Assembly: GCF_006345805.1 (NCBI RefSeq)
Contig: NC_042998.1
Span: 31,868,001 to 31,932,000 of the forward strand
DNA length: 64,000 nucleotides
DNA from: Octopus sinensis
Taxonomy: Eukaryota
Direction: 5' to 3'
Below, piece by piece: positions 6,001 to 51,000 of this stretch (position 1 is its first letter; every line of letters starts with the position of its first letter). Position numbers: made by a program.

Positions 6001-9000
6001 AAATTAAGAGTCAGGCCGTGTTTTAGAGCTTGAAAAGAGAGAGAGAGAGAGAGAGAGAGAGAGAGAGAGAGAGAGAGAGAGAGAGAGAGAGAGAGACAGA
6101 GAGAGGTGGAAAGAGAAATAGCAACAGAGATAGAGAGAGAGGGGTGGGAAGAAAAAAAAATATATATCATTTAAAAATAGGATAAAATCTTCATAAGAAA
6201 TTATCAAGTAGTTAGCGTGAAAAACCTCATAAGAGAAAACATCTGAAAATTTTTTCCACTTGAATATATTTATTTATATTATATAGAGGAGATTATTACA
6301 CATAAATGCCGCACGCTAGGAGGGTCTCTTAGAGTCAAAACTACCAAAATAAGACTTGCATTCGGTACGATATGTTTATTTTGGTAGTTTTGACTTTAAG
6401 AGTCCCTCCTAGCGTGCGGCATTTATGTGTAATAATGCCCTCTATATATATATATATATATATATATATTATACATACATACATAAGAAAGGAGATTACG
6501 CAGGAAAAACGATGGTTACGTAAATGAGGTTCACATCGTAACCATCGTTTATCCTGTGTCATCTCTTTTTCTTGTTACCGCTCTATACTCGTCTAAAACT
6601 TTGTTCTGAAACACACGTATATTGAGTTCTTCACGAGGTTATTGATGCAGACCGAAATATTAAGGCACAACACACACACACACGTACATCTAATTTTTCT
6701 ATATCTATGCAAATATATATTATATATACACTCACGTACATATAGACATACATACATATATAAATATGTGTGTGTGTGTGAGTATGTGCGTCCGTGTGTA
6801 TTCATAAGTATGGAAATATCTATATCTATGCAAAAACAAATTGAAACACACACGCACTTACATATGAAGCTCTTTATAGCTGGGAAGCTGTATCAGCTCC
6901 TAAAGGCCAAATCACATATCAAGACAGATCAAATCACAACTTTCAAATCTAATCCATTTGTGAATATAATCTTCTGAAAAGAGTGTTAAGATATCGCACG
7001 ATGCAGAACATTTACTTCTTTCACTATAAAATTAAATACAATTTTTTTGGAACGAGTTATGCATTATCGGCGTCATTTTTACGTATTAATACTGAACAAG
7101 TAATTTCTTCTACAAATTTTTAATTATTTTCAAATGTAATCGTTAGATAGGTGTTATTAAGAAACACAAGTTTCTTTAATCAAATATGTAGTATCTTGCC
7201 TATAAATATATGTTTGTTCCTTCTCGAGCCACCCCTGGCTCATAAGGGCCGGTTTCCCGGTTTCCTTGGAGTATAAGTTCCCCACCTGGACGGGACGCCG
7301 GTCCGTCGCAGGTGAGATGCTAGATGGAGGAGGAAAGAGTGGGGGAATGTTATGGCGAAAGAGTCAGCAGAAGTTCGTCATTACCTTCTGTCGGAGCCGC
7401 ATGGAGCTCAGATGTTTCTCTCATTAATACTCACATCGCCCGGTCTGAGATTCGAACCCGCGAGTCCGCTGCTCTAACCACTAGGCAATGTGCCTCCACT
7501 TAAATATAATATACCTACCCAATGTTATGTATTGATTTCTATTTCTGCTGTTCATATTCCCTACCTTACCCATCTCAGAATAATCACTGACTACATATCT
7601 TGCAGATGCTGGTGTATTCGAATGAATATAAAAATCGACTACACCACAAAAAGTTCGTTCGTAAAACAAACGTGTTTCGGCCCTAGTGTATTCCTATATA
7701 ACGTGCACTCAGTTAAATATTCAATTCTCTTATTATACTGTCAGTAACATTTTCGTTATTTATCGGGAATGCGTAGTATGGAATTGGTTAGGATCTTCAT
7801 AACTGTAGAGAGCTAGTAATATGGAAAATGTGAATGGTCATCTTCAGATATTGTATATCAATTAAGAATAATACACGATTCTAATTGTATCTAAATATAC
7901 TGTTCCTTTTCGAAGTAAAGTAATATTCATTCTTGATGACTGTACAATAATTAGGTGTAACGAAATAATTAATACTTTAAAGAATTGAAAATATCTCGTA
8001 TATATTGAAAATTGTATCGAAATGTATGAAGGAATTATATTAACTCTAGTTAATATGGCGGTTCTTTTCGCATGCCATATTATATTTGCTGGCATCAAGT
8101 AAAAATTTATAAGATATATATTTACACACGCACACACACACACACACACACACACACACACACACACATAATGTCATGTGATGTGTGTAAATATATATAT
8201 ATATATATATGTATGCATGTATGGACGTGTATGTGTATATCTATGCTTGTATACAGTATGATAAACATGCAATTTTATTAAAACTAGCAACATCCAATGG
8301 TTACTTCGTATTATTCAATTAATTTAGAGATTAGCAAAGTTTGCTAGATCCAACTCCTGTAAATATTTATGCACGGAATATTCTATCTTTTAGAACTCGT
8401 TTCAGTAAATACGTGCAGTGAATGTGTATACAAAGCAGAATTTTCCAAAACATCTATAGAATAATATAGATTCATAGTTTCTGAAACCCGCTTGTGGACG
8501 AACGGAAAAGGGAACTAGGATTGAATATAAGAAGAATCTCTAAATTCAACGGTCGTCCGGTAAAATTGGCGCGCTTGAGGAATATGCTTCAATTAATGAA
8601 ATAAATATTTTGTAACGTTCTGTGATGTGAATATCGTAAAGATTTTGTAAGCAGAGGGATTTATCATTTCAATCAAATAATCATCTCCGTTCATTTGATG
8701 ATCTCCCCACTTCTACCCAGTTTCACAATTCATCGTGCATATATCGTATATATATATATATATATATATATATATATATATATATATTATTATGCATTAT
8801 GTATGTATGTATATATATATGTATGTATGTATATATATATATATATAGATATATATATATATATATATATGTATGTATATATATATATATATATAGTATG
8901 TATATATATGTATATATATATATATATATATGTATGTATATATATATATAGTATGTATATATATATATAATGTATGTATGTATATTATATATATGTATGT

Positions 9001-48000: not shown

Positions 48001-51000
48001 TTACACAAAGAATGCGCAATGGATTGTAAAATAAGTGGAGTAATTTGTCAGACACATAATGACGATAGGAAGCATGAGAAAAGTGTGCAGAAGAAATAAA
48101 GTTTATACTTTTATTCAGTGGTCTGACTTTCACTGATGGCCATCTATTTTCACTTCCTAGTTTTCTGAAGTAGAAAACCACAATACTGGATAAGAGGGCG
48201 AAGATTCAACTATACTATGCTATACTATACTATACTATACTATATATATATATATATATATATATATATATATATATATATACATACACGCACACACACA
48301 CACACACACACACACTCACACACACATATATATATAATATATATATATATATATTATATATATAGGAAAGAATGGAGCTGAACGAAGATTTAATAAAATT
48401 CCTTTATTTTATTTTCGACATATGTTCGAAGTCATATGTTTCGAAACATATGTCGAAAATAAAATAAAGGAATTTTGTTAAATCTTCGTTCAGCTCCATT
48501 CTTTCCTATACTAAATATATTAATTAAACTTCAAATTTCCGCACTAAGGCACGGAGTTTATGCCCTATGGTCGTAACTTCAACCGTGCTTTTTCTGTTGT
48601 GAGTTTGCTACCCAGGTATCGGTTATCTTTCGTATTATCCGTGATAAGATAATTCATTTGTCTACTTATATATATATTTATATATATATATATATATATT
48701 ATATATTATATATATATATATATATATATATATATTATATATATATACATATATATATATCTATATATATACATACATATATATATTATATATATATATA
48801 TATATATGTGTGTGTGTGTGTGTGTGTGTGCGAGGGTTAAATAAAGACCCACACTAGACTTCTCACTGGTATTATTATCAAAGAGAGAATTTCACTACGG
48901 TCTTTCTATACCACGAACATCGTCTTACCTGCCACTTTAGGTTTTCTGGATACTAATACCCTTCATATATATATATATATGAAAGCATTCCTTCGGTTAC
49001 GACGACAAGGATTTGCCTTAACCAGCAAGCCGCATGCCTCCATATGGACATATAGATATATATATATATATGTGTGTGTGTATGTGTGTTTGTGTGTGTG
49101 CACGCACACACACACACACTACAAAGCAGAAAACATCAGCAACCGGCGTCTATTTTTACGCACGTTTTCTGAAGAATGGCTCCTAACCCTGAATTATAAT
49201 ACATGCATGTGTTTACCATATACACATGTCTGATTATTCTGTGGCATATTAACAGCCTTCTCAAAGTCTTTCGTGATAGTTCGCTCACCCTGATTCTAGC
49301 TGAAATGGAGGAACCTATAGCATTTTTGAAGAATAGAGGATAACAGAAGCTTATGGACGGATCAAGGAAAAGAGAGGCCGCCTGAAAACATTATATTCTT
49401 TGGATTGGAAGCGTGTTTGGTGGCATATCTAAAAGAATGCGTGCAATGCTTTTCTTTTTTCTCTGGGAATTTCGTGATATATCTATGTGAACTGCGTATA
49501 TTAGTGCGGTGACAACGGAAAGCAATCCACGATCTTTTGTCTAATTTAGCTTACCAATGATAACCAAACATCATTGTAATATTAGAACGGCAACCTACAC
49601 AAAGTGTATTTTCACTCATACAAATACCTACTTACACATGTATATATTCTTTATATTTTTATGTAATACTAGCAGTATCGCCCGGCGTTGCTCGGGTTTG
49701 TAAGGGAAATAACTATATAAGCATTTTTAGAGAGTTATAGCAAAAAAATAGCAAAAAAATGCATTAAAAATGGAAAAAAATGATGGTAAATTTTTTTTTT
49801 AAATCGTTGACTTATCGTAGACATTTTTAGAGAGTTACTTCCCTTATATAATAGCGAAAAAAATGCATTAAAATGGAAAAAATGATGGTAATTTAAAAAA
49901 AAAATCGTAGACTCATCGTAGACGCGGGCTAATACCCAGAAGGGCTCGATATGAATCACGACTATAAGATACCCGGTTTTGGTTAAGCTGCACCGCAAAA
50001 TGTGGGAGTAGTTAGGAATCTAAATCGTAGGAGACAGACACATAACTTGACTTTTATATATTAAGATTTCTCCCCTTAAAAATCAAACGGGACAATGATA
50101 GAATTGTATCTTTTAAACAACGCCTGCGATCCCATCAAATTGCGTTTAGTATTTGTCATAATTATTTTTGCCCCATTTTGCCGAGGGATTTCTAATTCTA
50201 CCTTAGCCATCTTCAACTTTCAATGATACAAAAATGACTAGTCACGTTTTAGTCTTGATTTAGTCATAGTGAAAGCAAGTGAGATGGTAACTAAACATGA
50301 TGGACTTCGCATGAAATAACAGTGTAGAACTCTACTCAACGCGTTTATACAACGAATAGATCATCTCACTCAAACGAAAACCTATTTTTATTCCTGGTCG
50401 CGCGTTAAATTTATTTCCTTAAAACTACAGGGAAGAAAGGAAACAATATGAGTGAGAAGGTGAGGGTTTCAATATATTTGAGGATATGTGTAAAGGAACT
50501 GGGATGACGTGGGTCGAAATAACACCAGCAGTTGCAAAATAGGTACAACGGCCACTAAGAACAATATGGCATCTATAGCTATGAATATCATTCGTAGCCA
50601 CAGCATATATAAATGCAAAATAGTTCTTTTAAAACCTATATCTTCAGCACAATTCATTTCAAAATATAAGTATTTCATTAGTAATAATTGTTTTCGATAA
50701 ATATAAAGAAATTGCTGAATACAGATTTGAATTTTGATTGTTTCTATGAATTGCCCATCAATTTGTCATACGACAAGAGGCAGTATTCAAAGACTTGTGG
50801 AATAGTGATATTTCAGCAAAGTTTCTATAACTGATGAACTGGTTCAACACCATCAGGTTAATAGACAGCGTAAGAGCTTCCCCAGTGGTATTTCAATAAA
50901 TACATAAGAAATACTTTATATTCTAAATTCATTATACACATTGCATTCATACAGTCAATACAATTATTTCTGCATCAAATACGTGTGTCTCTATATATTA

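What the first reader, a model, noticed from the sequence alone, without database searches (positions are those of the whole stretch)
6200..48660. Recurrent architecture: short unique extension plus two inverted arms, embedded in (TA)n
Seen at 6280-6447, 9875-10813, 28702-29147, 43066-43325 and 48361-48660: sequence-unrelated hairpins that abut TA tracts and carry an unpaired 35-150 bp extension on one side only. The 48.4 kb case is demonstrably made of the pseudo-LTR of the Naiad-like element at 57.2 kb. Established: PLE insertions can have an inverted, truncated upstream pLTR and a 3' tail extension. Inference: extreme 5' truncation plus inversion is producing many hairpins in microsatellites, which could supply dsRNA, small RNAs or new miRNA precursors.
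Basis: partly seen in the sequence, partly recalled or inferred. Interest (0 to 1): 0.7.

Follow-up and report, generated by a model that had tools for sequence, protein, structure and literature searches.

The report
Retroelement-made hairpins in TA microsatellites
Most of these hairpins look like the short, head-to-head remains of ribozyme-carrying Penelope-like retroelements that inserted into TA repeats, a structure already described for this element class rather than a new kind of feature.

Summary
All five hairpins exist at the stated coordinates. Arms are 66-136 nt and 81-97% identical.

TA adjacency is far above chance. H2, H4 and H5 have (TA)>=4 at both ends, at 0.5-1% chance each. 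H1 and H3 have it at one end.

The "extension" is mixed: 33-46 nt in H2, H3 and H4, about 160 nt and unexplained in H5, and none in H1.

A Penelope-like element (PLE) origin is supported for four of the five:
- The 56.6-58.0 kb reference is an ORF-less tandem dimer of a 685-bp unit. Each copy has a hammerhead ribozyme (HHR) motif about 43 nt from its 3' end.
- The H5 arms are the last ~65 nt of that unit.
- H2 and H3 carry HHR-like cores, with U3:A8 and A3:U8, that read toward the arm's outer end.
- H4 resembles H2 only at motif level.
- H1 has no PLE mark and could be a MITE.

Published biochemistry predicts this anatomy: both target strands are nicked and extended, and two reverse-transcription start sites lie 30-40 nt apart (PMC11167929).

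"Naiad-like" is unproven; a Hydra-clade or retrozyme partner fits at least as well. Small-RNA output is untested.

Verdict: new members of a known kind, moderate interest.

The parts
6277..6444 (.). H1: 168-nt near-perfect palindrome, flush to TA-rich DNA on the left and (TA)13 on the right. It has no tail and no HHR-like motif. Its origin is open (MITE-like or PLE).
9877..9913 (-). H2 tail: 37-nt one-sided piece between (TA)23 and a short TATATAA. Read on the minus strand it is AC-rich and ends in a T run.
9914..10015 (-). H2 left arm: the inverted, 5'-truncated copy. Its HHR-like core is damaged by small deletions.
10016..10708 (+). H2 internal region: a (GT)n tract, unique sequence and five copies of a 44-bp tandem repeat. 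Read as the upstream body of the longer, direct copy.
10709..10812 (+). H2 right arm. It holds an HHR-like motif at 10732-10764 with a U3:A8 core, helix I of 4 bp, helix II of 5 bp and GAAAC-CG-GU-U. The cut site lies 44 nt from the arm end.
28693..28837 (-). H3 left arm. It holds an HHR-like motif at 28737-28761 (minus strand) with an A3:U8 core, helix I of 5 bp, helix II of only 2 bp and GAAAC-CG-GU-C. The cut site lies 45 nt from the arm end.
28933..29103 (+). H3 right arm. It carries a 22-nt insertion relative to the left arm and ends in ATATACAT.
29101..29146 (+). H3 tail: 46-nt one-sided piece that runs into (TA)16.
43066..43098 (-). H4 tail: 33 nt between (TA)17 and TATATA.
43100..43322 (.). 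H4 palindrome, arms 43100-43194 and 43211-43322. It has a UUGAUAA core, a GCAU/AUGC helix II and ACCGGU-A, but the GAA is lost. It sits inside a SINE copy from which about 175-180 bp are missing.
48365..48506 (.). H5 palindrome. Both arms equal the last ~65 nt of the 685-bp unit. The centre of symmetry lies in the palindromic helix III of the HHR.
48507..48667 (+). H5 'extension': about 160 nt with no match to the unit or to anything else in the window. It may be ordinary flanking DNA.
56628..57258 (+). Unit 1 of the ORF-less tandem dimer. The HHR motif is at 57145-57216, and a (TA)n tract lies on each side.
57313..57944 (+). Unit 2 of the dimer. The 744-nt repeat alignment that spans both units is 98.4% identical. 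The HHR motif is at 57831-57902, where the G10.1:C11.1 pair has become G:U.
62077..62973 (.). A canonical min-HHR at 62135-62170 (minus strand) reads outward. This pair is not in a TA tract.
29179..29351 (-). R3: a solo fragment, not inverted, between (TA)16 and (TA)33. It has a min-HHR-like motif at 29272-29299 with one core mismatch. A second copy lies at about 47052-47190, with the motif at 47115-47142.

Best explanation
H2, H3, H4 and H5, and also H7 at 62 kb, are short 'double-primed' insertions of non-autonomous, hammerhead-bearing Penelope-like retroelements (animal retrozyme type).

The proposed mechanism has these steps:
1. The element's protein nicks both strands of an AT-rich target, here mostly (TA)n.
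2. Each nick primes reverse transcription of the element RNA from near its 3' end.
3. Both cDNAs stop early, which is the extreme 5' truncation.
4. The two cDNAs are joined head to head.

The result is two inverted arms whose 3' ends point outward. Reverse transcription can start at either of two neighbouring sites. When the two primings use different sites, one arm carries an extra 30-45 nt 'tail'.

Shown here:
- the anatomy;
- the homology of H5 to an HHR-bearing tandem unit;
- HHR-like cores at a fixed distance (43-56 nt) from the arm ends, always reading outward;
- the excess next to TA tracts.

Inferred:
- the two-strand priming and the two start sites (taken from in-vitro work on another PLE, PMC11167929);
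- that the short TATATA between arm and tail marks the inner start site through pairing with the TA primer;
- that the palindromic helix III helped join the two cDNAs in H5.

H1 is left open.
For: (1) The reference element. Positions 56575-57315 and 57260-58003 are 98.4% identical at an offset of 685 nt.
- A strict HHR descriptor hits both units and nothing else. It requires CUGAUGA, helix II >=4 bp, GAAA, helix III, UH and helix I >=4 bp. The expectation is 0.01 per shuffled window (200 shuffles).
- An unconstrained MFE fold recovers helices I and II.
- Helix III is 2 bp plus a 4-nt palindromic loop, as described for metazoan type-I HHRs (PMC4209133 passages).

(2) H5. Its arms match the unit's last 57-66 nt at 82-85% identity.

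(3) Relaxed descriptor with positions 3 and 8 allowed to be any Watson-Crick pair.
- It gives exactly four loci: the two units, the H2 right arm (U3:A8) and the H3 left arm (A3:U8).
- Shuffled windows gave 0 hits in 100.
- The U3-A8 core is a published PLE variant (PMC4209133).

(4) All these motifs read toward the arm's outer end. The cut sites lie 43, 52, 44, 45 and 56 nt from the arm ends.

(5) A min-HHR-style descriptor gives 7 hits against 0.02 expected. The hits include H7's arm and two solo R3 copies, so PLE debris is common in this window.

(6) The tails are 33-46 nt. Published PLE tails are 30-40 bp, sit at one end only and lie between two RT start sites. The purified PLE protein nicks and extends both strands of AT-rich DNA (PMC8557442; PMC11167929).

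(7) TA adjacency is well above chance.

(8) H4 replaces about 175-180 bp of a SINE copy, as shown by four paralogous copies. I take this as more typical of target-primed insertion than of cut-and-paste; that is my inference.

(9) The literature already reports paired min-HHRs 100-700 bp apart on opposite strands (PMC4209133). It also lists a Hydra-clade entry with an attached inverted 5'-truncated copy (PMC8557442 File S1).
Against: - No reverse transcriptase or GIY-YIG ORF is in the window. Of 147 ORFs >=75 aa I sent 100 to Pfam. The 47 left out were picked by eye as lying in microsatellite tracts.
- Rfam finds no hammerhead, either at gathering score over the whole window or at E<=10 over 56500-58100.
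- The relaxed descriptors were written after I had seen the motifs.
- The H3 helix II is only 2 bp. H4 lacks the essential GAA. The H2 segment does not fold into the HHR shape on its own.
- Tail homology is weak. Leave-one-out profiles did not recover the left-out tail. In a window-wide scan the H4 tail's best non-self hit is the H2 tail by one score point, 22 against 21. The H2 tail's best non-self hit is a SINE head.
- No second copy of H1-H4 exists in the window, so variable truncation points, the key prediction, could not be checked.
- The H5 extension of about 160 nt is far longer than a PLE tail and is unexplained.
- H1 shows none of these marks.
Confidence: 0.68

Rival explanations
1. 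The hairpins are palindromic MITEs of a TA-duplicating DNA transposon (Tc1/mariner type). They would have landed in TA tracts because every TA is a target. The 'tails' would then be chance remnants of host DNA.
For: - All the palindromes end in TA-rich DNA.
- H1 is a 168-nt palindrome flush to TA on both sides, with no tail and no HHR mark.
- A decayed Tc1-like transposase lies right beside H3 at about 27550-28545 on the minus strand: HTH_29 at E 1.5e-5, Tc1-like clusters in the Atlas, and an SPDINPIENL motif seen by eye.
- The outer 11-12 nt of the H4 and H2 units, tail included, resemble the opposite arm end, as short terminal repeats would (by eye).
- Palindromic mariner-derived MITEs as hairpin and miRNA sources are known (MADE1/miR-548, recalled, not looked up).
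Against: - HHR-like cores sit in the arms of H2 and H3 in fixed orientation and position.
- H5 is homologous to an HHR-bearing tandem unit.
- One-sided pieces of 33-46 nt recur three times.
- About 175-180 bp of target is missing at H4.
- The far end of the neighbouring Tc1 remnant shows no inverted-repeat relation to the H3 region: score 24 against a shuffle mean of 22.8.
Confidence: 0.17
2. Ordinary solo 3' fragments of retroelements were turned into palindromes later, at the DNA level. The route would be fold-back repair or replication errors at fragile (TA)n tracts.
For: - (TA)n tracts are self-complementary and prone to breakage (general knowledge, recalled).
- Solo, non-inverted fragments of HHR-bearing elements do sit beside TA tracts here (R3).
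Against: - In every case the centre of symmetry lies away from the TA tract and the arm ends abut it. A fold-back seeded in the TA tract would put the tract at the centre.
- It gives no reason for a one-sided tail of fixed size.
- H7 has the same build without any TA tract.
Confidence: 0.07
3. Assembly artefact: fold-back chimeric reads.
For: Palindromes in microsatellite-rich DNA are hard to assemble, as PMC8557442 notes for PLE insertions.
Against: The arms differ by 3-19% and carry indels of up to 22 nt. A chimeric read would give near-identical arms.
Confidence: 0.02

Closest known systems
PLE insertion units with an attached inverted 5'-truncated copy and a one-sided 30-40 bp tail (Craig et al. 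2021, PMC8557442; Frangieh et al. 2024, PMC11167929)
   Same: Inverted arms with the 3' ends outward, strong 5' truncation, a tail on one side only, an AT-rich or (TA)n target, and an HHR near the 3' end.
   Different: - Both copies here are cut down to 66-136 nt, so the whole insertion is a small hairpin.
- No ORF-bearing copy is present.
- The tails are 33-46 nt, slightly above the quoted range.
- The tail is set off from the arm by a short TATATA.
Hydra-clade PLEs (PMC8557442, File S1 sheet 3 and File S2)
   Same: (TA)n insertion preference is listed for 26 of 27 entries. Canonical type-I HHRs lie within roughly 100-200 nt of the 3' end. One entry has an attached inverted 5'-truncated copy. 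One family comes from Octopus bimaculoides.
   Different: No Hydra-type ORF is in the window. I could not align the consensus sequences, because sequence from the supplement may not be typed into tools.
Naiad PLEs
   Same: (TA)n preference, listed for all 5 cephalopod Naiad families in File S1. They also show inverted truncated copies and tails.
   Different: The paper's main text says Naiads lack canonical HHRs, and File S1 lists only 'HHR_core' or 'HHR_half_core' for some. The unit here has a complete HHR. The N-terminal GIY-YIG ORF with the CxC motif was not found.
Animal (non-LTR) retrozymes
   Same: ORF-less tandem repeats, each with a type-I HHR. They are regarded as non-autonomous PLE derivatives (bioRxiv 10.64898/2026.07.22.740005: abstract; passages). 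Dimers and monomers occur.
   Different: The unit here is 685 bp including a TA tract. The HHR's helix II carries a ~43-nt insert. Circular RNA was not testable.
Paired min-HHRs on opposite strands in Schistosoma mansoni and the U3-A8 core variant (Cervera & de la Pena 2014, PMC4209133)
   Same: Two HHRs 100-700 bp apart on opposite strands were read as truncated PLEs. The U3-A8 covariant core is described there.
   Different: The arms here are shorter. An A3:U8 core (H3) and a possible G3:C8 core (55086-55122) are also seen. Neither is mentioned in the passages I read.
Palindromic Tc1/mariner MITEs such as MADE1 (recalled)
   Same: Small TA-flanked palindromes that fold into long hairpins.
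   Different: MITEs have no HHR cores, no one-sided tail and no homology to a retrozyme-like unit. This remains the best fit for H1 only.

Membership tests
Penelope-like element insertion (any clade) | Single ORF with a telomerase-like RT plus a GIY-YIG endonuclease | tested here: not met
   No ORF exceeds 243 aa. No RT or GIY-YIG Pfam hit appeared in the 100 of 147 ORFs >=75 aa that I scanned. Membership can therefore only be as non-autonomous or truncated copies.
Penelope-like element insertion (any clade) | Hammerhead ribozyme motif in the terminal repeat, near the 3' end | tested here: met
   My descriptor scans hit the two 57 kb units, H2, H3 and H7 against 0-0.02 expected. Rfam models do not report them.
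Penelope-like element insertion (any clade) | Tandem or partial-tandem copies | tested here: met
   A 685-bp unit is present about 2.1 times at 98.4% identity.
Penelope-like element insertion (any clade) | Adjacent inverted 5'-truncated copy, with the 3' ends outward | tested here: met
   The orientation of the HHR-like motifs in H2, H3, H5 and H7 is toward the outer ends.
Penelope-like element insertion (any clade) | A 30-40 bp tail at one end only, shared within a family | tested here: inconclusive
   One-sided pieces of 33, 37 and 46 nt are present. Homology between them is marginal, and no further family copies were available.
Penelope-like element insertion (any clade) | Variable 5' truncation points among copies of one family | not testable with these tools
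   No eukaryotic genome or TE library was on hand, and the window holds no second copy.
Naiad clade | N-terminal GIY-YIG endonuclease, CxC linker, C-terminal RT | tested here: not met
   No such ORF is in the window.
Naiad clade | No canonical HHR (main text of PMC8557442) | tested here: not met
   The unit has a complete HHR. File S1 does, however, note HHR cores or half-cores in some Naiads.
Hydra clade | (TA)n preference together with a canonical type-I HHR near the 3' end | tested here: met
   compared with the table read.
Hydra clade | Hydra-type RT with a C-terminal endonuclease ORF, or nucleotide homology to a Hydra consensus | not tested
   There is no ORF here, and the consensus sequences could not be used in tools.
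Animal non-LTR retrozyme | ORF-less tandem repeat in which each unit has a type-I HHR | tested here: met
Animal non-LTR retrozyme | Self-cleaved, circularised RNA of unit length | not testable with these tools
   This needs RNA data or a cleavage assay.
Tc1/mariner-type MITE | TA target-site duplication at both ends | tested here: inconclusive
   The ends lie in TA tracts, so a duplication cannot be read.
Tc1/mariner-type MITE | Terminal repeats homologous to those of an autonomous transposon | tested here: not met
   The only candidate in the window, the Tc1 remnant beside H3, shows no such relation. No library was available for a wider test.
Helitron / Helentron | 5'-TC and 3'-CTRR ends with a short 3' hairpin | tested here: not met
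   The ends of the H2, H3 and H4 units, read directly on either strand, do not show them.
Known miRNA families | Match to an Rfam miRNA model at gathering score | tested here: not met
   There are 0 matches over the whole window.

The most novel reading that the evidence does not exclude
In this lineage the TA repeat may be part of the element and not only its target.
- The element RNA would carry short UA stretches at two places near its 3' end.
- A nicked (TA)n primer pairs with either stretch. That would set the two reverse-transcription start sites and so define the tail.
- A priming event at a non-TA nick would copy the RNA's own UA run into the genome.
- Each insertion would then seed or extend a TA microsatellite and leave a miRNA-sized hairpin.

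The hint comes from H4. The (TA)22 on its right abuts SINE sequence at a point where four paralogous SINE copies have no TA tract, and about 175-180 bp of SINE are missing. In addition, every unit of the 57 kb dimer is followed by its own TA tract.
Probability: 0.18. Interest if true: 0.6.

Novelty: new member of a known kind. Interest (0 to 1): 0.35.

Why it matters
These loci would be compact genomic footprints of a mechanism so far shown only in vitro for one vertebrate PLE. That mechanism has both target strands nicked and extended, and two adjacent reverse-transcription start sites.

They also show natural variation at the 3:8 pair of the hammerhead core (C:G, U:A, A:U) within one 64-kb window.

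If such insertions are frequent genome-wide, they would be a steady source of long hairpins and of TA-tract turnover. Both matter for small-RNA biology and for assembly quality.

None of this changes what is known about the element class.

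Tried and rejected
- **Rfam.** There were no matches at gathering score over the whole window. At E<=10 over 56500-58100 there was no hammerhead, only weak chance matches to miRNA models in TA tracts.
- **ARAGORN.** It found no tRNA genes.
- **Tail homology.** Leave-one-out nhmmer profiles of the three tails did not find the left-out tail. A Smith-Waterman scan over the window gave only a marginal H4-H2 link. I therefore do not claim that the tails are homologous.
- **More copies.** A sensitive blastn of every hairpin part against the window found no further copies of H1-H4. 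One 26-nt AT-rich match at 45833-45858 looked meaningless when read.
- **H3 as the end of the neighbouring Tc1 remnant.** No inverted-repeat relation was found.
- **H5 extension as the start of the next unit.** No similarity was found.
- **Organism.** The Atlas search with the Tc1 fragment confirmed the family but gave no useful taxon. The tRNA-derived SINEs remind me of cephalopod SINEs; that is recalled and untested, and the report does not rest on it.
- **Craig et al. supplement.** Exact-word searches with short window strings found only one unrelated 10-mer hit. The lines there are wrapped, so this is a weak test.
- **Looser helix III descriptor.** It adds two hits, at 55086-55122 and 61718-61798, but its null is 0.22 per window. 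I treat them as leads only.
- **3'-end signature at TA boundaries.** A pyrimidine-run plus CTCC-type signature flags 8 of 112 boundaries against a 3% background. Five of the eight are hairpin ends. The signature was defined after I had seen the data.
- **Literature.** One search for PLE-derived hairpins as small-RNA sources listed 9 papers, none on that subject by title. I make no claim that it is not in print.

Full report
**Setting.** The window is AT-rich, with about 34% G+C and no N. It has no ORF above 243 aa. It is packed with microsatellites: 84 runs of (TA)>=6 and 102 TRF rows. It also holds interspersed repeats, including two tRNA-derived SINE families. I could not establish the organism. 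All copy-number questions therefore stayed unchecked.

**The observation.**
- All five hairpins are real. The arms are 66-136 nt and 81-97% identical, and the loops are 9-693 nt. Predicted folding energies lie 13-21 sd below shuffles.
- The arms differ by 3-19% and carry indels, so fold-back read artefacts are excluded.
- (TA)>=4 tracts cover 4% of the window. H2, H4 and H5 have such a tract within 8 nt of both ends, with a chance of 0.5-1.1% each. H1 and H3 have one on one side only.
- Hairpins are still a minority of what lies between TA tracts. Of 39 TA-bounded intervals, two are whole hairpins and H2 spans two more.
- The 'extension' is not one thing. H2, H3 and H4 each have a 33-46 nt piece on one side, separated from the arm by a short TATATA-type stretch, and the palindrome itself runs up to TA on both sides. 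H5 has about 160 nt of unexplained sequence. H1 has none.

**The reference element.**
- The 'element at 57.2 kb' is a tandem dimer. Positions 56575-57315 and 57260-58003 are 98.4% identical at an offset of 685 nt.
- It has no ORF. Each ~631-bp body is followed by a TA tract.
- About 43 nt before the end of each body lies a complete type-I hammerhead. It has helix I of 5 bp plus 5 more after a bulge, CUGAUGA, and a 5-6 bp helix II closed by a ~43-nt insert with its own hairpin. Then come GAA, a 2-bp helix III with a palindromic AUAU loop, and GUC.
- A strict descriptor finds only these two sites, against 0.01 expected per shuffled window. An unconstrained fold recovers helices I and II.
- Rfam does not report it. 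I attribute this to the long helix II insert and the minimal helix III; that is an inference.
- The short helix III with a palindromic loop is the stated norm for metazoan type-I HHRs (PMC4209133 passages).
- The unit therefore looks like an animal non-LTR retrozyme. A recent preprint argues that these are non-autonomous PLE derivatives (abstract; passages).

**Linking the hairpins to it.**
- Both H5 arms are the last ~65 nt of this unit, at 82-85% identity. The centre of the palindrome sits in the palindromic helix III.
- For the other hairpins I let positions 3 and 8 of the core be any Watson-Crick pair. Exactly four loci in the window then fit: the two units, the H2 right arm (10732-10764, U3:A8, helix II of 5 bp) and the H3 left arm (28737-28761 on the minus strand, A3:U8, helix II of only 2 bp). 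There were no hits in 100 shuffles.
- I wrote this descriptor after seeing the motifs. However, the U3-A8 core is an independently published PLE variant with about 1,300 hits in Schistosoma mansoni (PMC4209133). GAAAC-CG-GUC is also listed as a PLE helix III in Craig et al.'s File S2.
- H4 keeps UUGAUAA, a 4-bp helix II and ACCGGU-A but has lost the GAA, so it is at best a dead relative.
- Three of the five ACCGGT sites in the window lie in the arms of H2, H3 and H4.
- In every case the motif reads toward the outer end of its arm. The cut site lies 43-56 nt from that end.
- A min-HHR-style descriptor gives 7 hits against 0.02 expected. These add a canonical motif in the left arm of a further inverted pair at 62077-62973 (H7, not in a TA tract). 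They also add one-mismatch motifs in two solo copies of a short repeat (R3) that sits between microsatellites.
- PLE debris is thus common in this window.

**Mechanism.**
- Craig et al. describe strong 5' truncation, an adjacent inverted 5'-truncated copy, a 30-40 bp tail at one end, and (TA)n targets (PMC8557442 passages).
- Frangieh et al. show that a purified PLE protein nicks and extends both strands of AT-rich DNA. It starts reverse transcription at two adjacent internal sites in an AC-rich stem-loop, and the tail is the sequence between them (PMC11167929, main text parts 1-2).
- Two primings from opposite strands, both ending early, give the anatomy seen here. Use of different start sites gives a one-sided tail.
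- Read in the sense direction, the three tails are AC-rich and end in a T run.
- My own inferences, not shown:
  - the TATATA between arm and tail is the inner start site, favoured by pairing with a TA primer;
  - a palindromic helix III helped join or snap back the cDNAs in H5;
  - the 175-180 bp of SINE missing at H4 reflect a target deletion at insertion.

**What argues against.**
- No autonomous element is in the window.
- Rfam is silent.
- Tail homology is marginal.
- The H3 and H4 motifs are incomplete.
- The key prediction, variable truncation among family copies, could not be tested.
- H1 carries no PLE mark. A decayed Tc1-like transposase lies beside H3. A TA-duplicating MITE therefore remains a fair reading for H1 and a minority reading for the rest. 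The Tc1 remnant's far end shows no repeat relation to H3.
- A later DNA-level fold-back at TA tracts is unlikely, because the TA tracts lie at the arm ends and not at the centres.

**Which clade.**
- 'Naiad-like' cannot be shown.
- File S1 of Craig et al. lists (TA)n for all five cephalopod Naiads, with 'HHR_half_core' for two of them. The main text says Naiads lack canonical HHRs.
- The Hydra clade lists (TA)n for 26 of 27 entries. It has canonical HHRs within roughly 100-200 nt of the 3' end, an Octopus bimaculoides family, and one entry with an attached inverted truncated copy.
- On features alone the unit fits Hydra or a retrozyme at least as well as Naiad.
- I did not compare sequences, because supplement sequence may not be typed into tools.

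**Function and novelty.**
- That the hairpins yield dsRNA or small RNAs is possible but untested. No known miRNA family matches.
- Inverted truncated PLE pairs, tails, TA targeting and the U3-A8 core are all in print. These loci are therefore new members of a known kind.
- The modestly new points are three. The insertions are very small. Three different 3:8 core pairs occur in one window. And at H4 a TA tract stands where four paralogous SINE copies have none, which leaves open that these elements carry or seed TA repeats rather than only target them.

Noticed in passing
window 27550-28545 (minus strand): A decayed Tc1/mariner-type transposase with frameshifts and stops. It has HTH_29 at E 1.5e-5, a weak HTH_Tnp_Tc3_2 hit, and an SPDINPIENL-type motif seen by eye. 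It lies directly beside H3.
   Followed up: partly
window 6486-6572: A sixth small hairpin (arms ~36 nt, ~80% identical, loop ~14 nt). It starts right after the TA/CATA tract that flanks H1. It has no TA tract on its far side and no HHR-like motif.
   Followed up: partly
window 62077-62973: An inverted pair (arms ~160-175 nt, 84-92% identical, loop 569 nt) with a canonical min-HHR reading outward in the left arm and a decayed one in the right arm. It has the same build as the TA-tract hairpins but is not in a TA tract.
   Followed up: partly
window 29179-29351, 11340-11530, 47052-47190, and a piece inside 59680-59880: A short repeat family (R3) that sits between microsatellites. On the minus strand two copies carry a min-HHR-like motif with one core mismatch, an unpaired A after A9 and a GAGC/GCUC helix II.
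   Followed up: partly
window 55086-55122 (+): A possible hammerhead-like motif with a G3:C8 core, helix I of 7 bp and helix II of 5 bp. It was found only with a looser descriptor whose null is 0.22 hits per window.
   Followed up: no
window 42832-43424, 55674-56087, 59487-60177, 32995-33460 (minus), 11028-11330: Five copies of a tRNA-derived SINE with an internal (TA)n(TG)n microsatellite. One copy hosts H4 and another hosts an R3-like insertion at that microsatellite.
   Followed up: partly
window 5145-5570, 12463-13575, 25614-26150, 29653-30496, 40468-40712, 42301-42475, 44509-44745, 45026-45205, 63046-64000: A second, very abundant tRNA-like SINE family. It is often in short tandem or inverted clusters and accounts for several of the longer inverted repeats in the window.
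   Followed up: no
window 37437-38300: A 430-bp tandem duplication (2.0 copies, 97% identical) that is made largely of TA-rich microsatellite.
   Followed up: no
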